In this document: piece by piece, positions 1,359 through 59,206 of the stretch | Layout of the letters: each line of letters starts with the position of its first letter | How positions within the stretch are numbered: position 1 is the stretch's first letter | From: a virus | Taxonomy: Duplodnaviria > Caudoviricetes | Direction: 5' to 3' (one strand) | IMG/VR virus record: IMGVR_UViG_3300027971_000001 | DNA length: 64,000 nt | The notes under the pieces: model-generated | Database searches by the model: none | Told to the model about the DNA's origin: nothing | Seen by the model: the letters and a program-made list of their open reading frames with translations, nothing else | Made by a program: the position numbers and the translations under genes

Positions 1359-2198
1359 GTGAGGTTCGAACAATTATTATATAAAAATTATTTGGCTATT
1401 AATGAGGATACATTCTCGTCTGAGAACGATTGTACACTACTCAGCATTTCTAAACCGAATAGCAAAATACCGTTTTATAACCTAAATCTTCCGGCTGGTT
1501 ATACTTGTCCGTTTGCTGACAAATGCTTGAGCAAAGCAGATCGGGAAACAGGTAAAATCAAAGAAGGTGAAAAAGGTGAAGATGAGTACCGTTGCTATGC
1601 AGCTTCACAAGAAGCTGTTTATTCCAACACAAGAAATCAACGCCACAATAATTTTGATCTGCTTCTTTCCAAAAAAACATCAGATGAAATGGCAGATTTG
1701 ATCGTAGATTCTATTCAAGCTGAAATACCTATGCGGGAAAAGATTTTCCGTATTCATAGCAGTGGAGACTTTTTTAACCTGCAATATCTACAAGCTTGGA
1801 TCAAAGTGGCGGAACGCATGCCCAATATAAAATTTTATGCTTATACCAAAAGCATTCCGTATTGGGTTGCTTTAAAAGATCAAATACCAAACAATCTTAT
1901 CCTGACAGCATCTTTAGGAAGCAAACATGACAAATTGATCATGGATAATAATTTAAAATATTCAGTAGTTGTGTTTAGTAATGAAGAAGCTGAAAATTAT
2001 GTGTTGCCCAAATATTGGCAGGAAAAGCTTGGTCGAGAAAAAGGTTTGGTGGTTGATCATGATGACCATATGGCATATGAAAACAACGAACCGTTTGCAT
2101 TGTTGATACATGGTGTTCAACCCAAAGGGACGGTGGCAGCTGCAGCTTTAAAGAAATTGGGTGGTATTGGTGGTATCAGCAGTTACAGCAAGAAATAA
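1359..2198 (+). CDS. GP88-family (radical-SAM-like) protein
   Basis: LPAGYTCPFADKC...CYA, FRIHSSGDFF and FYAYTK motifs typical of the Gene product 88 family. Confidence 0.75.
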   Translation: MRFEQLLYKNYLAINEDTFSSENDCTLLSISKPNSKIPFYNLNLPAGYTCPFADKCLSKADRETGKIKEGEKGEDEYRCYAASQEAVYSNTRNQRHNNFDLLLSKKTSDEMADLIVDSIQAEIPMREKIFRIHSSGDFFNLQYLQAWIKVAERMPNIKFYAYTKSIPYWVALKDQIPNNLILTASLGSKHDKLIMDNNLKYSVVVFSNEEAENYVLPKYWQEKLGREKGLVVDHDDHMAYENNEPFALLIHGVQPKGTVAAAALKKLGGIGGISSYSKK

Positions 2199-17336: not shown

Positions 17337-17344
17337 TATTTATA
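17337..17344 (-). promoter_or_regulatory. T4-type late promoter TATAAATA
   Basis: Exact T4 late consensus 9 nt before ATG 17327; gp55 is encoded in this window. Confidence 0.7.
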
Positions 17345-19878: not shown

Positions 19879-19911
19879 CCTTATTATTTAGTAATATAAA
19901 TATTATATAAA

Positions 19912-23723: not shown

Positions 23724-23731
23724 TATTTATA
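23724..23731 (-). promoter_or_regulatory. T4-type late promoter TATAAATA
   Basis: Exact consensus 6 nt before the portal ATG (23717). Confidence 0.75.
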
Positions 23732-49365: not shown

Positions 49366-50151
49366 TTAAGCAATGTCCCGACCAACAGTATTTCCACCAC
49401 CAACATTAGCCGGAGGTGTAGCAACATAATTCAAACTAGGCTTTTCGCTAAATTGACCTTTCTTTTCATTATAAGCAGGCAATACATATTCTTTGTTCAC
49501 ATCAATAACAATACCTAATTGTGAAATAAATTTTTTACCAATAAGAACAGGTTGATCGTTTTGTGTTCTGTCTCCTATGCTGAAAGGAACCATCTTGTAT
49601 AAGACACCCCCAAAAACGATGTCTAATGCCACTAGGGGACGTTTTTCCTGCTCACCCGCCCCGATATGTATGCTGACCATGTCCAGAAGAGGTCTGGTCA
49701 GTTCTACATCATTTACACTTGTGAATTTTGCGTACTTATAGCCATTCTTTTCAATGATCTCAGCATTTACACCGCAAAGCACATTGTTGCTGTCGTTTCC
49801 GCTATCGATTTTGGCATCTACGTTTCCCAGACCATCAATATAAACCTTTTCAACTAAACCTATGGTTTGATATTGAAATTTTTCAAAAAAGAAACGAAAA
49901 GGTTTGAAGCTTTCCTTATTCAATTGAATTTCTGTTTTTTCCAGCTTGTCACCTTTGTTCCAATTTTTACCACCATTGGTGGCTTTATATTCAACTTTAT
50001 TACCAACAATATTTCCTTTTTTACCTTTTATTTTGGTAACTTTGGTAACCTTTCCCTTGCTCTTGTAATGCTTGCAGCTTGGATTGGTATTTTTGATAGT
50101 ATCACCCTTATGCAGTTCATTAGGAGCCAGCTTGCAAATACCTTTCTTCAT
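49366..50151 (-). CDS. Basic N-terminal module + retropepsin-like aspartic protease (RimK-associated type)
   Basis: AKIDSG catalytic motif, EKRPLV, FSIGDR...PVLIGK; internal NKESFKPFRFFFE linker. Confidence 0.8.
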   Translation of the reverse strand: MKKGICKLAPNELHKGDTIKNTNPSCKHYKSKGKVTKVTKIKGKKGNIVGNKVEYKATNGGKNWNKGDKLEKTEIQLNKESFKPFRFFFEKFQYQTIGLVEKVYIDGLGNVDAKIDSGNDSNNVLCGVNAEIIEKNGYKYAKFTSVNDVELTRPLLDMVSIHIGAGEQEKRPLVALDIVFGGVLYKMVPFSIGDRTQNDQPVLIGKKFISQLGIVIDVNKEYVLPAYNEKKGQFSEKPSLNYVATPPANVGGGNTVGRDIA

Positions 50152-50163
50152 AAAGATATTTAA

Positions 50164-50412
50164 TTATTTGGTAGGTGCGCCTTTTTTCCAGCTAATGCGT
50201 TTGCCACTCTTTTTAAGCCGCTTACGGCTGCTGCACATGCTTTTGGTAGGACGACAAGCAGGATAACCTTTACGTTTTTCACCCTTTTGACGACCACAAG
50301 GCTTTCCAGTTTTACAATCTATCCATCCTTTGCCTTTGTTGTGACCAAACCAGTCTCGAAGAGATTCTTCCTTTATGATCTCAAGTATTCGATTGTCAAA
50401 CAAAGTGGTCAT
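50164..50412 (-). CDS. Basic Cys-containing small protein, probable head-internal
   Basis: LRDWF...WIDC.TGKPCGR...YPACRP module. Confidence 0.7.
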   Translation of the reverse strand: MTTLFDNRILEIIKEESLRDWFGHNKGKGWIDCKTGKPCGRQKGEKRKGYPACRPTKSMCSSRKRLKKSGKRISWKKGAPTK

Positions 50413-50594
50413 TTCTTTTTGGATTTACCCCAGTTTTTTGATCCTACTTTTCTACATTTACTCAAAGCTCCACTGGCATATGCGCTAGGCCAAACTTTAT
50501 AACGACGTTTAACTTTGTGATAACAAGCATCTCGTTTGGCTTTTTTCTTGGTGGCTTCTTCAAGAAGCTGACTTACTAGATCGTTGAAATTCAT
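50409..50594 (-). CDS. Basic small protein, probable head-internal
   Basis: MNFNDLVSQLLEE, then DACYHKVK.RYKVWPSAYASGAL.KCRK.G..NWG. Confidence 0.7.
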   Translation of the reverse strand: MNFNDLVSQLLEEATKKKAKRDACYHKVKRRYKVWPSAYASGALSKCRKVGSKNWGKSKKK

Positions 50595-50599
50595 TATGT

Positions 50600-51757
50600 T
50601 CACCAATTTTTACAACTAAAGTATTTGGCTGTACCTGGTTTTGCGCTGGAACATTTGTGTCTGGCACGAAAACTTTTTCGTTTTTTTGGATTGCTTTTTT
50701 TGATGCGCAATTTAGGATCACCATAATGAACCCTCTTTAATTTTCCATCAACCCGTGTACAACGCATATATTTTTTGTCAGAACGTGTAGATTGTTGTTG
50801 GCCAGTAACCTTGGTGCATCTTGCACCTTTCTTTTCCATAACAACACCTTCTTTTATTTCTTCGTTGTCTTCGTTCCCACCGTAATATCCATAATCTTCA
50901 TCTGTACCAAGACCTGCACTGGCAAGAGCTTCTGCATCATCACTCATATCATCAGAACCTCTTGGTTCAGAATCTTCAGACCGATCTTCTTCTTTTTTAA
51001 GATTTTCAAGATAATCGGATATGGTAGTAATATAATCATCAGCAAGAGTTATTTTGCTTTGAACCCAACCTTCAAATTGATCGTTGTTTTGAATCATTCC
51101 TATCATATGATCAATTTTATCCCGCATGCTCTTTAATTGATAAAGTGCCATTCTTCCTTCATCATCACCTTCAGGAGAATGATTTTCATTCAAATTGCTC
51201 ATGATTTTGTCAAAAGCATTACTGAAACTGCTTTCTTCTCTCATGCTTTCGGGATCACTTTCAATATCATGTGGCTCATCTTCAAATTGATTAACTTCTT
51301 TTTCGGCACGATATGCCAGTTTAAACGCTTCAGGACCAATAGCGTTTTTTATAAATTGTAATACTTCGCTATCTCCCCGAAATTTATAAGGAAATAGATT
51401 TCTGGTTTGAAGAAGCAAATTGATTAAATCGGGTTGGGCATCTATTATTTTTGTCTTTTCCTGATTATTTTTTTCTAAATCTTTTATTGCTTGTTTTGCT
51501 TTATCCAAAGCAGCTTTTGGACTCATAGATACAGCAGTGCCTGATTCTTCGCCTTCATTTGGAGCATATTCATATCCTTCAGGAATGCTGTCCAAAGTCT
51601 TTTTGATTACATGAGGTCTGAAAACAGAAAGCAATTGACTGTAATTTTCGAAAATATATGCAAGAGATGGCTTTTTCTTATGCTCTTTAACGATATCTTT
51701 TAAAATAATATCCAGATCATTTTCATCCATATCATATTCTACATTAATGTTTTTCAT
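50600..51757 (-). CDS. Modular acidic/basic protein with C-terminal DUF6321-like module
   Basis: EGWVQSKITLADDYI module and HYGDP...KSNPKKRKSFRARHKC...KYFSC..W module separated by acidic linkers. Confidence 0.7.
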   Translation of the reverse strand: MKNINVEYDMDENDLDIILKDIVKEHKKKPSLAYIFENYSQLLSVFRPHVIKKTLDSIPEGYEYAPNEGEESGTAVSMSPKAALDKAKQAIKDLEKNNQEKTKIIDAQPDLINLLLQTRNLFPYKFRGDSEVLQFIKNAIGPEAFKLAYRAEKEVNQFEDEPHDIESDPESMREESSFSNAFDKIMSNLNENHSPEGDDEGRMALYQLKSMRDKIDHMIGMIQNNDQFEGWVQSKITLADDYITTISDYLENLKKEEDRSEDSEPRGSDDMSDDAEALASAGLGTDEDYGYYGGNEDNEEIKEGVVMEKKGARCTKVTGQQQSTRSDKKYMRCTRVDGKLKRVHYGDPKLRIKKSNPKKRKSFRARHKCSSAKPGTAKYFSCKNW

Positions 51758-52923
51758 ATATTTGTGTTTTTTTGCTCCACATAGTTATTTATATATTCTA
51801 TAAGGGTTTTTGCAGTATCTTTAATAACATTAAAATTGCTGGTTATATGTTCCGGATCAATCTGCCAAAGAGCCAAATACTTCTCAGTATGAGGTGCCGG
51901 AATATCATATTCACTCAGAACAAAATTAGCTACTCCTTCTGCCTGAAGCTCCCGGATTTTTCTTTCTGGGACATTATCCCGATCTTTCCAGTGTAGCATT
52001 TCATGAGCAACTTCATGAACTAGTGTGCTTAGACTTTCACTAACAAGTTCAATTGTTCCACCTTTACTAACACCACGAGCACCGCCTAACTCATCTTCGC
52101 TTTTTATATCTACAACAATATTATTGTCTTTGGCATATTGTTTTACAGCTTCGAATATGGTTTTCATGCGCTCATCCAAAGGAGCATCATCAAACCATTG
52201 AATTTCTTCAGGTATTTCCTTTTCTCTTCCAGGAATAGGTTCAGTTTGGGAAATATCAAATACAGGAACCAAACGAAAACGCATGATTTTTGAAGATTCG
52301 CCACTAGTGGGATCCACTCCTACTGTCACATCTGCATCTTTTTGTTTCACCATGATTGGTGCATAAATCAGAATGGATTTTTCTCCTGGTTTAATTTTCC
52401 GACCAAACTGACGAAACCACATATTCTTTCCTCCTACTCGGGAAGCATTTCTTCTTTGAAGAAAGATAAGAATTTGATTGTTGAAAGAATAGTTCCTAAA
52501 ACGCTTTTGGAATTGAACATATTCTTGATATTCTTTGCTATTTTTAACATTTAGAACACCGCTTTTTAAAAGTTCCACAAATTTTTTGAATCGATCTTCC
52601 AAATTTTCACCGCCAAATTCAGAAACGGTTGTGTCAGAAGATTCTTCTTTATTGAATTCGTTTAGTTTCTTGATTGTATTTTTTACAAAATCATTAGATT
52701 GAGTTTCATCTAAAGGAGATGTTTCCCATCGACGTTCCAATGCATTCCATTTAAATCCTAACGTTTTGATAAAGTCTTTATTTTTAAAAGTTTCATTGCC
52801 TGCTTCTTTAGGATCTGCAAGATCACTACTTGCTATAAAAATAGTCTTTCCTTCAGGACCTGGTCTTTTTTTCAAAATAAGTTTTTCACTTAAAAGACTT
52901 TTTATATTTTTAAAAGATATCAT
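51754..52923 (-). CDS. ArdC-like anti-restriction protein (ssDNA-binding domain + HExxH domain)
   Basis: YSFNNQILI.LQ, W...GRK.KPGEK.I.I.AP, VPVFDISQT, HEVAH, ELQAEGVA; N-terminal KDFIKTLGFKW module. Confidence 0.85.
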   Translation of the reverse strand: MISFKNIKSLLSEKLILKKRPGPEGKTIFIASSDLADPKEAGNETFKNKDFIKTLGFKWNALERRWETSPLDETQSNDFVKNTIKKLNEFNKEESSDTTVSEFGGENLEDRFKKFVELLKSGVLNVKNSKEYQEYVQFQKRFRNYSFNNQILIFLQRRNASRVGGKNMWFRQFGRKIKPGEKSILIYAPIMVKQKDADVTVGVDPTSGESSKIMRFRLVPVFDISQTEPIPGREKEIPEEIQWFDDAPLDERMKTIFEAVKQYAKDNNIVVDIKSEDELGGARGVSKGGTIELVSESLSTLVHEVAHEMLHWKDRDNVPERKIRELQAEGVANFVLSEYDIPAPHTEKYLALWQIDPEHITSNFNVIKDTAKTLIEYINNYVEQKNTNI

Positions 52924-52930
52924 GTTTTAT

Positions 52931-52942
52931 TAAATATTTATA
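52931..52942. promoter_or_regulatory. Palindromic bidirectional late promoter TAAATATTTA
   Basis: Palindrome 52931-52940 serves minus ATG 52923 (TATAAATA 52935-52942) and plus ATG 52942; same palindrome at 49335-49344. Confidence 0.6.
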
Positions 52943-53166
52943 TGGGAATGAGCAATGATCTTAAGAAATTAGGTGATCTTTATTGTGAAAATCTAGGTCT
53001 AGGACCTCAAGCCAACAGTGCTTTGAATCCAGCTGCCGACATGCCAACAGTGGTTAAAAACGATCCAGAGAAGGTTTTAAACGAGTTTTTGACGTTTTTA
53101 AGAGGTATACAAGGACCAGATATTCGTAAAAAGGTAGTTTTACGTGTTTTGGAAACTATTCTTTAA
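52942..53166 (+). CDS. Small protein, probable head-internal
   Basis: MSNDLKKLGDLYCE N-terminus. Confidence 0.55.
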   Translation: MGMSNDLKKLGDLYCENLGLGPQANSALNPAADMPTVVKNDPEKVLNEFLTFLRGIQGPDIRKKVVLRVLETIL

Positions 53167-53620
53167 GACGATAAAATTTTATACAAGTTACGTGTCCAGT
53201 TTGGTCAACAATGCTACCTCTAAAAACTTCTAGTTTATTATTTTTTCTTAAAACATCTAAAGCACGTCGAGTAGTTTCTTGATTAGTTTTCATTTCTCTA
53301 CAAAGCTGAATGATTGTTTTCCAATCTTTACCTTCAGGAAGTTTTTCACGGCTTTTAGCATAATCATAGTAAAGATTTTGCCAATTTTTTTTAAGTGGGT
53401 TATAGAAAATTTTACTGGTAATAGATTTCCTACATGTTAATGATGTTCCTACACTTTTTTTAATTTTTTCTGTTTCTTCACACCATTTTAAAAATTTAAG
53501 AGACGTATTTCCACTGCATTTGATAATGTCCATGATTTCCAATCTGGTATTCCAATTACCAGATGGTCTGAGTTCTTTTTTTCTTACTATGGATTCTAAC
53601 TGTTTAACCCATTTAGACAT
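53156..53620 (-). CDS. Tandem winged-HTH-like repeat protein
   Basis: Two ~60-aa repeats of P.G..W.T..(E/Q)...G.......FY. Confidence 0.6.
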   Translation of the reverse strand: MSKWVKQLESIVRKKELRPSGNWNTRLEIMDIIKCSGNTSLKFLKWCEETEKIKKSVGTSLTCRKSITSKIFYNPLKKNWQNLYYDYAKSREKLPEGKDWKTIIQLCREMKTNQETTRRALDVLRKNNKLEVFRGSIVDQTGHVTCIKFYRLKE

Positions 53621-54150
53621 AATTTATACCAGATTTTACGAGTTAAAAATTTTCTTTTGCTATCGTATTTGTATCCGTCAAAAATTTGAACTTGTTTGTT
53701 TAATTTATTTTCCCTAATAAGTCTTAAAATTTTTGTTCTGGCTAAACCTGTTTTTTGTGACAATTCACCTACAGTAAACCAATTTTTACCATTAGGAATT
53801 CTTTGTCTTTTGATTTTATACGAATTATTTTTAAAAATATTTTTCCAAGTATCATTTTTTAAACGATACCAGACAGCTTTTTTAATATATCCATTTTCAG
53901 ATCTTTCATTACCAACAAACATTTCGCATTGTTTTTTCTGAATCATTTCAGAAATCACAAGACGAACCACATGTAGCGATTTGTTGGTAGCCCTATGAAT
54001 TTGATTTATATTCATCCAACCCAGACCATTTGGAAGATTTTCGTCTTTACGCATTTCTTGAAAAAGAAACTTAGCCCAATCATCTTTTTGAAGATTTTTT
54101 ATTTTGAACTTCTTGTTACTCATAACCCGATAATATCGGATACAAAACAA
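53596..54150 (-). CDS. Tandem winged-HTH-like repeat protein (paralogue of 53156-53620)
   Basis: LPNGLGW...F.G...WYRLK and IPNGKNW...FDG...WYKL repeats. Confidence 0.6.
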   Translation of the reverse strand: MFCIRYYRVMSNKKFKIKNLQKDDWAKFLFQEMRKDENLPNGLGWMNINQIHRATNKSLHVVRLVISEMIQKKQCEMFVGNERSENGYIKKAVWYRLKNDTWKNIFKNNSYKIKRQRIPNGKNWFTVGELSQKTGLARTKILRLIRENKLNKQVQIFDGYKYDSKRKFLTRKIWYKLCLNGLNS

Positions 54151-54153
54151 TTG

Positions 54154-54903
54154 TCAACTATATACTTTTATATTTGTAGGAATGATATATTTGCGATTAC
54201 GCTCTTTTGCCTGATAAACTTCATGGGTTCCATCACCATGAATAAGACCAAATGCCCATCCATGTTGCCATCTTAAACGACGCATTTGATTCCTATTGTA
54301 ACTTGGATTCAGATTGCTAAGACAACCTATATTCCAACATTCTCGAACATCAATACTCACACTTCTGAAATAATCGATTGCATGTGTGTGACCGAATAAA
54401 ACATTTCCGTATGTGTCTGCATGTTGTTTTGAACCATGAATATTGTGTCCATAACCGTGAACAAATGAAAGGGATCCACATTTGTAGACACCTTGTTTGG
54501 AATCATAAGGAAACATTTGAACACGATATTTCTTAACAAGATCCTCAATTTCTTCTGTTCCTTGTGATGCATAATCCCTTTTCAAGCCACTTCCTGCATT
54601 ACTTAAAAGATCATAAATTCTTTCATCGTGATTTCCTCGTAGAAATACGCGCTCTTGACCGAATGAAAAAAACTTTTTGAAGAAATCTTTTCCAGCATCC
54701 CAATCTTCTGTCATGCTTTGACTTTCTTCATAATCAGCACTCGCATTTTTTCTAATGGCACGAAAATCCCATACGTCACCGATACAAACCGTAAGATCCG
54801 GTTTATAATCGCGCATAAAATTATACAAACATTTTAATGCAACTGGGTCTGACTCATCTCCGTGTATATCTCCCGCTGCAACAAACTTAATAGGTTTGGC
54901 CAT
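54154..54903 (-). CDS. Calcineurin-like metallophosphoesterase
   Basis: GDIHG, GDVWD, GNHDER, VHG, GHTH. Confidence 0.9.
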   Translation of the reverse strand: MAKPIKFVAAGDIHGDESDPVALKCLYNFMRDYKPDLTVCIGDVWDFRAIRKNASADYEESQSMTEDWDAGKDFFKKFFSFGQERVFLRGNHDERIYDLLSNAGSGLKRDYASQGTEEIEDLVKKYRVQMFPYDSKQGVYKCGSLSFVHGYGHNIHGSKQHADTYGNVLFGHTHAIDYFRSVSIDVRECWNIGCLSNLNPSYNRNQMRRLRWQHGWAFGLIHGDGTHEVYQAKERNRKYIIPTNIKVYS

Positions 54904-56220: not shown

Positions 56221-56623
56221 CTTTAAACCAATATTCCTTTGGTTTTCCAATTCTAATATTAATGATTCCATTGTAGTACTCTGGAGTTTTTATCACTTCA
56301 TTTTGAATTTGCAATTTTATTTCTTCATATGCCAGTTCCCATTTACTTCTGCAAAACCTTAAAATTTCAAATTTAAAATTTTCTTTTCCGTATTTTTCAA
56401 TATCCTCATTCAGTTCCCGGCAACTTCCTGTATAAGTTTTCCAATCGCTTTCAGAATATGTTATTTTACTATTTTTACGACTTTTCAGTTTTCTTTTTTT
56501 GCGAAACTGAAGTTGTTTCTTTCCAATATATTTTCGGTTATTTTTTAAATTGGTGATCAAATAAATGAAGCCGAAACTTTCATCTTCAAATTTTTCACAA
56601 ATCCAATGACCATAATCATTCAT
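56204..56623 (-). CDS. GIY-YIG nuclease-domain protein
   Basis: GFIYLITN...RKYIGKK, YTGS, FEIL, E..LQ, YYNG.I. Confidence 0.85.
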   Translation of the reverse strand: MNDYGHWICEKFEDESFGFIYLITNLKNNRKYIGKKQLQFRKKRKLKSRKNSKITYSESDWKTYTGSCRELNEDIEKYGKENFKFEILRFCRSKWELAYEEIKLQIQNEVIKTPEYYNGIINIRIGKPKEYWFKDAKEG

Positions 56624-56865
56624 TTAAGATTTCTTCGTTGAATCAGGACTTTTTTCTTTTTTCTTTTACCCTTTTTGGTTTTTTTCCAAGATCCAAAAGC
56701 AAAAGGAATCCTTGCATCACCCGGTGCATATCCATCTCCACTAGAAATAGTTCCAGGCGGGTTAAAGATAGTTCCTATGCTAGGTCCGGCACCAAATACA
56801 CCTCCCGGTCCTGCTGTATTATCTTCATTTAAGATTTTACTAAAAATATTTGAAAAAAGACCCAT
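56620..56865 (-). CDS. Small protein, probable head-internal
   Basis: MGLFSNIFSKILNE, G-rich, D..APGDAR.P, basic tail; TAAATA 6 nt upstream. Confidence 0.65.
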   Translation of the reverse strand: MGLFSNIFSKILNEDNTAGPGGVFGAGPSIGTIFNPPGTISSGDGYAPGDARIPFAFGSWKKTKKGKRKKKKVLIQRRNLK

Positions 56866-57276: not shown

Positions 57277-58688
57277 ACCGTATTTTTCTGGATAAATCTA
57301 AAAAGTTTGGAATGATAGAATCACCGCACATTCGGATGATTCGAAATCATTTTTCGTGTGAAAATAAAACTGCACGGCATATGCGCAGAAAAGGTTATTT
57401 TGTGGCAGATCGTTTATATGCCATAACACCTTCCGGTAGATTTGATTTGGGTCTTTTCTATTCCATTTACAAATACATGTCAGAAACAATAGGCTTGGAG
57501 GATATTGTAGTAGAAAAGGATGTTTTAGAAAAAGCCAACCCTATTCGGCTTAAAACTGAAATTCAATACTTGGAATATGAACCTAGAGATTATCAAAAGG
57601 AAATGTGCGAAAAAGCATTTAAATTTGGACGAGGAATTTTTGAAGTTGCTACTGGTGGAGGAAAAACATATGTCATGGCAACAATCAGCCATAATCTTAT
57701 AAAAAACAATTTGGCTAAAAAAATATTGATTATAGAACCTGATCTTGGATTGGTTGAACAAGTTTATGATGAATTCAAGAAAACTGGTGTAAAAAATCAG
57801 ATTAAAAAATACACAGGAGATAATGATTTTGACGGAGACTCGGAGATTATCATTGCCAATATAGGTGTTTTAAATTCTAGGGGAGAAGAAAAAATTGAGG
57901 ATTGTGATGCAATAATAATTGATGAGGCGCACAAATATAAAAGAGGAAACAAAATTAATAAAGTTTTGGACAAATTACCGGCATGTATTCGATTTGGATT
58001 CACAGGAACCCTTCCAGATGAAAAAGAAGACGTTTTGTGTATTGAAGGTAAATTTGGTCCAGTAATTTACAAAAAAACATCGGTAGATTTGAAAAAGTAT
58101 CTGACTCAAGCTCAATGTACAGTTATTGAATTGGATTATCAAAATCAACCAGAATGGTTAGATCCAGATGATTTGAAAAGATATCGTCAAGAATATGAAT
58201 TTGTAATAAACAATTCTTCCAGAAACAATATTATTAGCAAATTGAGTTGTAATTTACAAAATAATACATTGGTGTTGATTGATAGAATTCAACATGGGTT
58301 GGATCTTCAAAATGTTTTGGAAAAAATATGTGAAAATAAAAAAGTCTTTTTTATACGAGGAGATGTTGAAGTGGAATCTCGAAATGAAATTAGAAAAATA
58401 ATGGAAAACGCTAACAATGTCGTTTGCATTGCTATAAGCAGTATTTTTGCAACAGGTGTTGATATTAAAAATCTTCACAATATTATTTTGGCAAATGCAG
58501 GAAAAGCTAAGATTCGTCTATTGCAAAGCATAGGTCGTGGGTTAAGATTACATCCCACCAAAGAAAAACTTATGCTTATTGATTTAGCCGACCAACTTTA
58601 TTATGGAAAAAAACACTTTGAAAAAAGATTTGAAATTTACAATCGAGAACAAATAGAAACCAAGAAAACACAATATAAAATAATATGA
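57273..58688 (+). CDS. uvsW: UvsW helicase (SF2)
   Basis: PRDYQ, ATGGGKT, IIDEAH, GFTGT, FATGVDIKNL, QSIGRGLR. Confidence 0.95.
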   Translation: MNRIFLDKSKKFGMIESPHIRMIRNHFSCENKTARHMRRKGYFVADRLYAITPSGRFDLGLFYSIYKYMSETIGLEDIVVEKDVLEKANPIRLKTEIQYLEYEPRDYQKEMCEKAFKFGRGIFEVATGGGKTYVMATISHNLIKNNLAKKILIIEPDLGLVEQVYDEFKKTGVKNQIKKYTGDNDFDGDSEIIIANIGVLNSRGEEKIEDCDAIIIDEAHKYKRGNKINKVLDKLPACIRFGFTGTLPDEKEDVLCIEGKFGPVIYKKTSVDLKKYLTQAQCTVIELDYQNQPEWLDPDDLKRYRQEYEFVINNSSRNNIISKLSCNLQNNTLVLIDRIQHGLDLQNVLEKICENKKVFFIRGDVEVESRNEIRKIMENANNVVCIAISSIFATGVDIKNLHNIILANAGKAKIRLLQSIGRGLRLHPTKEKLMLIDLADQLYYGKKHFEKRFEIYNREQIETKKTQYKII

Positions 58689-59206
58689 AAAAGAAAAGAG
58701 GACGTAAACCAAAAAATCAAAATCCGGATATGGATATATCCGAAGATCAGGAAAAAATCAAAAAAATTGCTGCAAAAGTAAAAAAAGAAAAGATTCACTA
58801 TGTAAATGCAAAAGAATTTGAGGAAGGCATTCGATCATTTTATGCATCTGAAATTCTTACCCAATATTTGGGTGAAAGTGTAAGTAAGATTGCCAATGGT
58901 CTGAGCTATGCTCCAAACTTCATAAATTATAGCTATCGAGATGAAATGGTGGGTGATGCTATTGTTAAAATGATGACAGCATTGAAACATAAGAAATTCA
59001 ATCTGGATTCTGGTTATAGTCCGTTCAGTTATTTCACAACCATAGCATTCCATGCTTTTATTAATCGAATTAAAAAAGAAAAGAAGCATCACGAAACATT
59101 AGAACAGTATCGTGAAAAAATGTATACAGATAAAATGATTGAAGGTACTGCTAACACAGGTGCTCATGTTTATATAGATCCAGATAATAATGACGACAAC
59201 GATTGA
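58685..59206 (+). CDS. 55: Late-transcription sigma factor (T4 gp55-like)
   Basis: HYVN..EF, IANGLSYAPNFINYSYRDEMVGDA, PFSYFTTIAFHAFINRIKKEKK. Confidence 0.92.
   Translation: MKKKRGRKPKNQNPDMDISEDQEKIKKIAAKVKKEKIHYVNAKEFEEGIRSFYASEILTQYLGESVSKIANGLSYAPNFINYSYRDEMVGDAIVKMMTALKHKKFNLDSGYSPFSYFTTIAFHAFINRIKKEKKHHETLEQYREKMYTDKMIEGTANTGAHVYIDPDNNDDND

What the first reader, a model, noticed from the sequence alone, without database searches (positions are those of the whole stretch)
51754..52923. ArdC-like anti-restriction protein that appears to be packaged in the capsid
Seen: ArdC-type ssDNA-binding domain and HEVAH...ELQAE metallo-domain behind MISFKNIKSLLSE, with exact TATAAATA upstream. Known: plasmid ArdC protects incoming DNA from restriction; P1 DarA/DarB and T4 IPI are anti-restriction proteins injected from the head. 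Late expression would be too late to protect the genome of the same infection. Inference: ArdC repurposed as a co-injected shield for the next infection, an undescribed combination to my knowledge.
Basis: partly seen in the sequence, partly recalled or inferred. Interest (0 to 1): 0.75.

Follow-up and report, generated by a model that had tools for sequence, protein, structure and literature searches.

The report
ArdC-like protein with head-targeting leader
An uncultured freshwater T4-like phage encodes a real ArdC-type DNA-binding metalloprotease that carries a short N-terminal tag like the one phage T4 uses to load proteins into its head, so it is probably delivered with the DNA, though no experiment shows this yet.

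Summary
ORF 51754-52923 (-) encodes a 389-aa protein with an ArdC-N domain, an intact gluzincin site (HEVAH, ExxA, conserved Tyr) and R388 ArdC as its best solved fold match. An exact TATAAATA lies 11 nt before the ATG.

The packaging idea is supported only by comparison.
- In 95% of 40 homologues (25-89% identical) a leader of variable sequence, 6 to about 25 residues long in the loci I read, ends in hydrophobic-x-Glu just before the first strand of a conserved N-terminal domain.
- AlphaFold gives residues 1-11 low confidence.
- Homologues with other N-terminal bodies keep such a leader. Short plasmid-like ArdC forms in other viral contigs lack it.
- All 8 leader-bearing contigs searched encode a T4 gp21-type (S77) prohead protease.
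- Unrelated neighbouring genes carry similar leaders.
- The window encodes a gp55 late-sigma homologue.

Not shown: late-only expression, cleavage, presence in virions, or any anti-restriction activity. An early-type promoter 1.2 kb upstream, with no terminator found, could read through.

The concept is not new in kind: T4 IPI*, P1 Dar, and the Iyer 2017 prediction for ArdC-N/MPTase proteins. The combination of ArdC with a T4-type tag is unreported in the papers I searched. First-reader notes of this scan list this leader family in this genome, and follow-ups report similar tags on other DNA.

The parts
52935..52942 (-). TATAAATA late-promoter-type box, 11 nt before the ATG. Its core is part of a palindrome TAAATATTTA shared with the divergent + strand ORF.
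   Evidence: The TAAATA core is conserved in relatives L001, L007, L010, L011 and L013 while flanking bases vary.
52885..52923 (-). Codons 1-13: leader MISFKNIKSLLSE, ending in L11-S12-E13, the candidate capsid-targeting propeptide and prohead-protease site.
   Evidence: pLDDT is below 50 for residues 1-11 or 1-12. E13 is present in 97% and [LIVMF]-x-E in 95% of 40 homologues. F4 and I7 match the hydrophobic positions 4 and 7 of the T4 CTS.
52639..52884 (-). Residues 14-95: N-terminal alpha/beta domain specific to this phage clade (strands 15-21, 27-33, 58-60, 65-67; helices 38-54, 73-91). No assigned family.
   Evidence: No clear fold match: best VIA Z 5.6, Atlas TM about 0.5.
52588..52638 (-). 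Residues 96-112: low-confidence linker with a second, semi-conserved V-S-E102 site.
   Evidence: pLDDT below 50 for 96-106. [LIVMF]xE is present at E102 in 70% of homologues.
52258..52587 (-). Residues 113-222: ArdC-N (ssDNA-binding type) domain.
   Evidence: Pfam PF08401 above the gathering score. Foldseek top hits are R388 ArdC 6sna/6i89, probability 1.0.
51757..52191 (-). Residues about 245-389: gluzincin metallopeptidase domain with H303-E304-x-x-H307, E325-x-x-A328 and Y349.
   Evidence: These residues are invariant in A2. They correspond to R388 ArdC H201/E202/H205, E229 and Y255 (PMC7213743).
50164..51757 (-). Three downstream genes without own promoter boxes: a 385-aa protein overlapping by ATGA, a 61-aa protein starting MNFNDLVSQLLEE, and an 82-aa protein starting MTTLFDNRILEIIKE. 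They are probably co-transcribed with the ArdC-like gene.
52942..53166 (+). Divergent conserved 74-aa ORF, whose start abuts the box. It separates the ArdC-like gene from the upstream minus-strand genes.
   Evidence: 81% protein identity in L010 despite DNA divergence.
54130..54157 (-). Sigma-70-like promoter TTGACA-16-TATTAT (11 of 12 matches) upstream of two small genes. It is a possible source of early read-through into the ArdC-like gene.
   Evidence: No terminator-like site was found on the minus strand between 53156 and 52923.
58685..59206 (+). Homologue of T4 gp55, the late sigma factor that reads TATAAATA in T4.
   Evidence: 33% identity over 113 aa to T4 gp55, E 2e-12.

Best explanation
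The gene encodes a genuine ArdC-family protein (ArdC-N DNA-binding domain plus an intact gluzincin metallopeptidase). In a broad clade of uncultured T4-like myoviruses it has gained an extra N-terminal domain and, in front of it, a short head-targeting propeptide. Proposed course: (1) transcription from a gp55-type late box (inferred from the motif and a gp55 homologue); (2) the 13-residue leader directs the precursor into the scaffolding core of the prohead, as the T4 capsid-targeting sequence does (inferred by analogy); (3) the gp21-type S77 prohead protease cuts after L11-S12-E13, leaving a 43-kDa protein that starts KLILKK (inferred from motif conservation); (4) the protein is ejected with the DNA at the next infection. 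There it binds DNA and/or cleaves a host protein, so the genome is protected before any phage gene is expressed (inferred from the functions of plasmid ArdC and of T4 IPI* and P1 Dar). The stated confidence is for steps 1-3 plus packaging. The anti-restriction role on entry is less certain, about 0.35.
For: Family: Pfam ArdcN, phrog_7245, Foldseek top three hits R388 ArdC, and invariant H303/E304/H307, E325/A328 and Y349 matching the R388 catalytic set.

Leader:
- E13 is present in 97% and [LIVMF]-x-E in 95% of 40 homologues at 25-89% identity. In the 28-sequence N-terminal alignment E13 is invariant and P3 is always L/I/V/M/F by my reading. Leader length varies from 6 to about 25 residues.
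- AF2 gives pLDDT below 50 for residues 1-11 and places the first strand at residue 15.
- Homologues with different N-terminal bodies (L051, L052, L055 of 821-991 aa; L059; L079) still begin with a leader ending in hydrophobic-x-E (I-x-E in four, F-K-E in L059).
- Short ArdC forms of 269-288 aa in other viral contigs have neither the leader nor the N-domain.
- The leaders resemble T4 leaders read from NC_000866: IPII/III MKTYQEFIAE, gp24 MAKINELLRE, Alt MELITE. F4 and I7 match the T4 targeting positions 4 and 7, and L11 and E13 match the processing positions (PMC9026906).

Protease: an S77 prohead protease is present in 8 of 8 leader-bearing related contigs. It is absent from the one 95%-complete contig whose ArdC domain sits inside a 1355-aa protein with no such leader.

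Shared tag: unrelated neighbouring genes carry similar, in several lineages lineage-specific, leaders. In the window the pattern M-x(1-3)-[FY]-x(1-11)-[LIVMF]-x-E occurs in 12 of 91 N-termini against 4.2 +/- 1.9 after shuffling, and is associated with the TAAATA box (Fisher p = 0.016). The pattern was defined after looking at the sequences.

Late signal: the TAAATA box is positionally enriched, also in front of the portal and virion genes. The box is conserved in close relatives. A gp55 homologue lies in the window.
Against: There are no proteomic, N-terminal or transcript-start data, so everything past the domain assignment is inference.
- E13, L15 and L17 could be conserved because they begin the folded N-domain rather than as a cleavage site.
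- [LIVMF]-x-E alone is common: 36% of internal 21-residue windows contain one.
- The promoter box is 11 nt from the ATG, not the usual 5-6 nt, and is half of a palindrome that also serves the divergent gene.
- Across 37 homologous loci a sense box is no commoner than an antisense one (17 against 15). In one lineage (L057-L071) the gene sits in an operon with DNA-metabolism genes.
- A strong sigma-70-like promoter upstream, with no terminator found, allows early read-through.
- T4-like phages inject dsDNA, so the classical ssDNA-coating role of ArdC does not transfer directly.
- The R388 protease site was dispensable for its known function.
- The mature protein is not basic (pI 6.1), unlike the T4 internal proteins.
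Confidence: 0.55

Rival explanations
1. Late-expressed but not packaged. The ArdC-like DNA-binding metalloprotease works inside the producing cell late in infection. It could remove DNA-protein adducts or protect single-stranded replication and recombination intermediates (Spartan/IrrE-like), or cleave a host factor. On this reading the conserved N-terminus is simply part of its fold.
For: Structural kinship of the ArdC protease domain with Spartan and IrrE. E13-x-L-x-L continues directly into the first strand. The late-type box is present.
Against: It does not explain why the pre-E13 segment varies from 6 to about 25 residues while P3 and P1 stay fixed. It does not explain why homologues with other N-terminal bodies keep a leader, or why unrelated neighbours share it.
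Confidence: 0.22
2. Conventional early anti-restriction protein. The gene is transcribed early by read-through from the sigma-70-like promoter at 54157..54130 and acts in the same infection, as R388 ArdC acts when expressed in the recipient cell. The TATAAATA then belongs to the divergent gene's palindrome, and the leader has no targeting role.
For: An 11-of-12 sigma-70-like promoter upstream with no terminator detected. R388 ardC is needed in the recipient, not the donor (abstract, PMC7213743). The gene lies among non-structural genes. The L057-L071 lineage has it in a DNA-metabolism operon.
Against: The minus-strand TAAATA is perfectly kept in L007, where the plus-strand box is degenerate. 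An opposing conserved ORF lies between the early genes and the ArdC-like gene. The leader conservation and the co-occurrence with an S77 protease are left unexplained.
Confidence: 0.13
3. Targeted to the prohead but not an ejected effector. The protein could be a core or scaffold-associated protease or DNA-handling factor that is degraded or stays in the capsid.
For: A second semi-conserved V-S-E102 site in the disordered linker could mean further processing, as for T4 core proteins.
Against: An intact, strongly conserved catalytic site and DNA-binding domain argue for a working mature protein. The gene is absent from cultured T4-like phages in GenBank at tblastn E below 1e-5, so it is accessory.
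Confidence: 0.08

Closest known systems
ArdC of IncW plasmids R388/pSa (PDB 6I89, 6SNA; PMC7213743)
   Same: ArdC-N domain followed by a gluzincin metallopeptidase with HExxH, a glutamate-helix ligand and a conserved Tyr. Best solved fold match.
   Different: About 15% sequence identity and a different inter-domain arrangement in the model (TM 0.22-0.34). It has an extra 100-residue N-terminal region (leader, novel domain, linker). It is encoded by a dsDNA T4-like phage, not a conjugative plasmid that transfers ssDNA.
Phage T4 internal proteins IPI*/IPII/IPIII and Alt, with their capsid-targeting sequence cut by gp21 (PMC3012670, PMC9026906)
   Same: Short N-terminal leader ending in L/I-x-E, hydrophobic residues at positions 4 and 7, a late-type TATAAATA box, an accessory gene outside the structural module, and an S77 protease in relatives. 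IPI* is itself an injected anti-restriction protein.
   Different: No sequence homology of the mature parts. The leader is 13 residues rather than 10. The mature protein is acidic to neutral and 43 kDa. Packaging and cleavage are not shown here.
Phage P1 Dar system (DarA, DarB, DdrB)
   Same: Head-packaged proteins that protect the incoming DNA from restriction. DdrB carries an MPTase-type peptidase domain (PMC5512222).
   Different: No homology was tested or seen. P1 uses a different head assembly and different targeting.
Polyvalent proteins of phages and conjugative elements (Iyer et al. 2017, PMC5512222)
   Same: ArdC-N plus MPTase is their commonest domain pair. The authors predict delivery together with the DNA, and head packaging for the phage versions.
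   Different: They find ArdC-N mostly in conjugative elements and propose autoproteolysis by the MPTase. They describe no T4-type leader or gp21 site. This protein is small, with a three-domain architecture.
ArdC homologues of huge phages (bioRxiv 10.1101/2025.02.27.640493)
   Same: Phage-encoded ArdC with conserved key residues, proposed to protect against host defence.
   Different: That work concerns genomes over 200 kb and says nothing about leaders, processing or packaging.

Membership tests
ArdC (Pfam PF08401 ArdC-N plus gluzincin MPD) | ArdC-N domain above the curated threshold | tested here: met
   25.1 bits against a cut-off of 22.6, residues 113-222. Many homologues carry precomputed PF08401.
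ArdC (Pfam PF08401 ArdC-N plus gluzincin MPD) | C-terminal gluzincin site: HExxH, a glutamate-helix ExxA ligand and a conserved Tyr | tested here: met
   H303, E304, H307, E325, A328 and Y349 are invariant in 40 sequences. The features are defined in PMC7213743.
ArdC (Pfam PF08401 ArdC-N plus gluzincin MPD) | Fold like solved ArdC | tested here: met
   Foldseek ranks 1-3 are 6sna_F, 6sna_A and 6i89, E 2e-5 to 7e-5, probability 1.0. Global TM is low because the domain orientation differs. The sequence profile found no PDB hit.
ArdC (Pfam PF08401 ArdC-N plus gluzincin MPD) | ssDNA binding and alleviation of type I restriction | not testable with these tools
   Needs EMSA and restriction-alleviation assays.
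T4-type capsid-targeted, gp21-processed head cargo | N-terminal leader of about 6-25 residues ending in L/I-x-E, with hydrophobic targeting positions | tested here: met
   MISFKNIKSLLSE with F4, I7, L11 and E13. The junction is conserved in 95% of homologues. Criteria from PMC9026906.
T4-type capsid-targeted, gp21-processed head cargo | Phage encodes a gp21-type (Peptidase_S77) prohead protease | tested here: met
   Present in 8 of 8 related contigs with leader-bearing ArdC, including the close relative G002 (87% identical ArdC). The window's own genome is not held, so this is by proxy.
T4-type capsid-targeted, gp21-processed head cargo | Late transcription (TATAAATA read by gp55) | tested here: inconclusive
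   The box and a gp55 homologue are present. Against that, the spacing is atypical, the box is palindromic and early read-through is possible. The one RNA run held only contigs and did not cover the gene.
T4-type capsid-targeted, gp21-processed head cargo | Processed protein present in virions and ejected | not testable with these tools
   Needs virion proteomics on a cultured relative.
Polyvalent proteins (Iyer 2017) | Several effector domains in one polypeptide, encoded next to virion or transfer genes | tested here: inconclusive
   It has three domains, including the typical ArdC-N plus MPTase pair. It is small and not adjacent to structural genes in the window.

The most novel reading that the evidence does not exclude
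A whole clade of uncultured T4-like phages, with contigs of 80 to 360 kb, pre-loads its capsids with an ArdC-type DNA-dependent metalloprotease by means of a T4-style address tag. The enzyme would be injected with the genome and would disable host nucleases or other DNA-sensing defences by proteolysis or DNA shielding, before any phage gene is expressed. This would be a plasmid anti-restriction module converted into a virion-delivered effector.
Probability: 0.3. Interest if true: 0.75.

Novelty: new variant of a known kind. Interest (0 to 1): 0.55.

Why it matters
If true, it links two known solutions to the same problem: plasmid ArdC, and the head-delivered anti-restriction proteins of T4 and P1. 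It would show that the T4 address tag is used in nature to recruit horizontally acquired defence-breaking enzymes as capsid cargo. It also gives a sequence rule (a leader ending in hydrophobic-x-Glu, plus an S77 protease) for predicting injected proteins in uncultured T4-like phages. Finally, it offers a phage system in which to look for the still unknown substrate of the ArdC protease domain.

Tried and rejected
- DNA search of the phage collection with 15 kb of the window found no match.
- tblastn of the protein against GenBank phages gave only 7 distant hits, all to the ArdC core and none in T4-like phages.
- No whole genome is held for the window. The nearest record, G001, is a 17-kb fragment without a head module.
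- A sequence profile against PDB found nothing.
- The N-terminal domain folded alone gave no convincing match in PDB (best Z 5.6). In the ESM Atlas it gave only TM of about 0.5 to N-terminal modules of RadC, ERF, LPD29 and DUF3560 proteins. The feature search of the Atlas gave nothing.
- One lake metatranscriptome (held as contigs only) holds pieces of neighbouring genes but none over the ArdC-like gene, and contigs cannot show transcript starts.
- The bare motif [LIVMF]-x-E at residues 6-26 does not separate late-box genes from the others (Fisher p = 0.15), so I used a stricter, post hoc pattern and conservation instead.
- Unbiased pairwise comparison of N-termini in the window gave only a modest excess: 20 pairs scoring at least 26, against 8 after shuffling.
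- Alignment of the relative's capsid protein with T4 gp23 is too loose at the N-arm to fix the cleavage site. The T4 site aligns 13 residues after INE|D.
- I did not run complex prediction, because no defined partner was worth the job.
Full report
**The observation**

The ORF lies on the minus strand at 51754..52923. It encodes 389 residues beginning MISFKNIKSLLSEKLILKK.
- Pfam assigns ArdC-N to residues 113-222, above its gathering score.
- PHROGs assigns the 'anti-restriction protein' family phrog_7245 to residues 127-387.
- HEVAH (303-307) and ELQAE (325-329) are present as described.
- An exact TATAAATA lies at 52942..52935 on the same strand, 11 nt before the ATG.

**What phage this is**

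The window belongs to an uncultured, AT-rich (about 35% GC) T4-like myovirus.
- It carries a gp20-type portal (32-34% identical to cyanophage portals), a tail sheath stabiliser, a gp41-type helicase, gp46/gp47, PhoH and large virion proteins.
- ORF 58685-59206 is a homologue of the T4 late sigma factor gp55 (33% identity, E 2e-12).
- No whole genome is held for the window.
- The protein has 146 homologues in metagenomes. Full-length ones occur in viral contigs of up to 362 kb.

**Family membership**

- An AlphaFold2 model built from 40 homologues (mean pLDDT 76.5) has R388 ArdC (6sna, 6i89) as its three top Foldseek matches, at probability 1.0. The global TM-score is low because the two domains sit differently.
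- H303, E304, H307, E325, A328 and Y349 are invariant in the 40-sequence alignment.
- They correspond to the R388 ArdC metal ligands H201, H205 and E229, the catalytic base E202, and Y255, within the gluzincin pattern HExxH ... (E,H)xx(A,F,T,S,G) (PMC7213743).

The protein is therefore an ArdC-family member with an apparently active peptidase site.

**The extra N-terminal region**

Residues 1 to about 112 are not found in plasmid ArdC.
- The models give residues 1-11 (or 1-12) pLDDT below 50.
- A small alpha/beta domain follows, with strands at 15-21, 27-33, 58-60 and 65-67 and helices at 38-54 and 73-91.
- A low-confidence linker then leads to ArdC-N.
- The domain has no convincing solved relative.

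**The leader**

- Across 40 homologues at 25-89% identity, E13 is present in 97% and the pattern [LIVMF]-x-E in 95%.
- In the 28-sequence N-terminal alignment E13 is invariant, and by my reading P3 is always L, I, V, M or F.
- The segment before it varies in sequence and in length. Examples are MKYRLLE, MKDLLKKLLRE, MKNFIKKFLEE, MSFYEFYNSIINE and MRDVDTIILENLYKELLNPTETIEE.
- The T4 leaders, read directly from NC_000866, are MKTYQEFIAE|A (IPII, IPIII), MAKINELLRE|S (gp24) and MELITE|L (Alt).
- In the IPIII capsid-targeting sequence, residues 4 and 7 carry targeting and residues 8 and 10 carry processing (PMC9026906). The window protein has F4, I7, L11 and E13.

Three further observations argue that the leader is a module rather than part of the ArdC fold:
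- Homologues whose ArdC core follows a quite different N-terminal body still start with a leader ending in hydrophobic-x-E. These are L051, L052 and L055 (821-991 aa), L059 (MTYKDFFKE) and L079 (MIISFKEWLKIAE).
- Short ArdC forms of 269-288 aa in other viral contigs have neither the leader nor the N-domain.
- Unrelated neighbouring genes carry similar leaders, and in several lineages these follow a lineage-specific form. L029 has MRDVDTIILENLY on ArdC and MRDNDTLILETLY on a neighbour. L027 has MKNDALILENIY and MYDKDSIILESLY. L024 has MSFYEFYNSIINE and MKSFENFYENY. The window has MKSFKDLFTKYLTE, MKFEQILKNKYSLLSE, MKFENSILQTITE and MGLFSNIFSKILNE.

In a scoring test, the ArdC leader matched the N-termini of its own locus better than their internal segments in five of ten lineages. 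Its own locus ranked first to third in those five.

In the window, the pattern M-x(1-3)-[FY]-x(1-11)-[LIVMF]-x-E fits 12 of 91 N-termini. Shuffling gives 4.2 +/- 1.9, and internal Met windows give 3.4%. The pattern is associated with the TAAATA box (p = 0.016). Because I defined the pattern after seeing the sequences, these figures are generous.

**The protease**

- A Peptidase_S77 (T4 gp21-type) gene is present in all eight related contigs with a leader-bearing ArdC that I searched. These include G002, whose ArdC is 87% identical and syntenic with the window.
- It was not found in the one 95%-complete contig whose ArdC domain is embedded in a 1355-aa protein without such a leader. That is a single contrast only.
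- In G002 the scaffold protein is full of L-x-E sites.
- The G002 capsid protein reads ...CMINE|DNTAGNGG. This junction is copied behind a short leader by the window's 81-aa ORF at 56620-56865.

**Timing of expression**

For late expression:
- TAAATA lies within 30 nt upstream, in sense, of 25 of 90 genes, against 9 in antisense. The spacing peaks sharply at 5-6 nt.
- It precedes the portal, a 1001-aa virion protein, the sheath stabiliser and most leader-bearing genes. Genes with TTGACA-type promoters lack it.
- The ArdC box is conserved in five relatives at 84-100% protein identity while its flanks vary. In L007 it is intact where the opposite-strand box is degenerate.

Against late-only expression:
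- The spacing here is 11 nt.
- The box is half of a palindrome shared with the divergent 74-aa ORF.
- Over all 37 homologous loci, sense boxes (17) are not commoner than antisense ones (15).
- In the L057-L071 lineage the gene lies in an operon with DNA-metabolism genes.
- A strong sigma-70-like promoter at 54157..54130 has no detectable terminator before the gene.
- The one RNA run available did not cover the gene.

Late expression is therefore likely but not shown, and early read-through is not excluded.

**Mechanism and rivals**

The best-supported reading has four steps.
1. The precursor is made from a late promoter.
2. Its leader directs it into the prohead core.
3. The S77 protease cuts after E13.
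4. The 43-kDa mature protein (pI 6.1) is delivered with the DNA.

What it does on arrival is the weakest step.
- T4-like phages inject double-stranded DNA.
- R388 ArdC acts when expressed in the recipient cell, and its protease site was dispensable there.
- DNA-dependent proteolysis of a host defence factor, or protection of DNA ends or single-stranded stretches, are both possible.

The rivals are a late intracellular role, an ordinary early anti-restriction role, and a non-ejected core role. They are listed with their evidence in the rival explanations.

**Comparison with what is known**

- Injected anti-restriction proteins are classical: T4 IPI* with its capsid-targeting sequence, and P1 DarA/DarB (PMC3012670; PMC5512222).
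- Iyer et al. 2017 predicted that proteins containing ArdC-N and MPTase domains travel with the DNA, and that phage polyvalent proteins are head-packaged. They found ArdC-N mainly in conjugative elements and did not describe a T4-type leader.
- A 2025 preprint reports ArdC genes in huge phages without addressing packaging.
- No paper in the searched library combines ArdC with capsid targeting.

I therefore class this as a new variant of a known kind.

Within this scan, first-reader notes already list this leader family in this genome, and follow-up reports describe similar tags in other phage genomes. Those notes are not independent evidence.

Noticed in passing
window, e.g. 23724-23731 (-), 17337-17344 (-), 19895-19902 (+), and about 20 other gene starts: The late-type box TAAATA ends 5-6 nt before the ATG of about 15 genes, with no Shine-Dalgarno sequence. 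With T4-like start-site spacing, the late mRNAs would begin at or next to the AUG (leaderless). The same layout occurs in relatives G002 and G003.
   Followed up: partly
window 56620-56865 (-): An 81-aa ORF, MGLFSNIFSKILNE|DNTAGPGGVFGAGPSIG..., is 73% identical over 44 residues to residues 59-102 of the major capsid protein of relative L084. The match includes the putative cleavage junction INE|D.
   Followed up: partly
window 58685-59206 (+): Homologue of the T4 late sigma factor gp55 (33% identity, E 2e-12), placed next to gp47/gp46 as in T4.
   Followed up: yes
window 49366-50151 (-) and 1359-2198 (+): A Pfam Zn_protease (PF05618) domain protein under its own TAAATA box. Also a Pfam GP88-family protein that begins with a CTS-like leader, MRFEQLLYKNYLAINE.
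   Followed up: no
window 50164-50606 (-) and the C-terminus of 50600-51757 (-): Two small, basic, Cys-containing proteins (61 and 82 aa) with CTS-like leaders sit downstream of the ArdC-like gene. A similar basic Cys-rich tail ends the 385-aa protein. They are reminiscent of the small basic internal proteins of T4.
   Followed up: no
G003 (contig of L024), about 124.8-134.4 kb: Six late-box genes share a second, different N-terminal leader (MNNFHY..D.LY.AAA.IL....L.E). This suggests more than one tag family in one phage.
   Followed up: no
window 52618-52626 (-), residues 100-102: A second semi-conserved hydrophobic-x-Glu site (V-S-E102, present in 70% of homologues) lies in the disordered linker between the N-domain and ArdC-N. 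It could be a further protease site.
   Followed up: partly
window 52926-52942: The palindrome TAAATATTTA lies between the ArdC-like start and the divergent, conserved 74-aa ORF 52942-53166 (+). It gives each gene a late-type box: 5 nt before the + ATG and 11 nt before the - ATG.
   Followed up: partly
window 53156-54150 (-): Two small paralogous-looking genes (154 and about 173 aa, no family hit) sit behind a near-consensus sigma-70 promoter, TTGACA-16-TATTAT, at 54157..54130.
   Followed up: no
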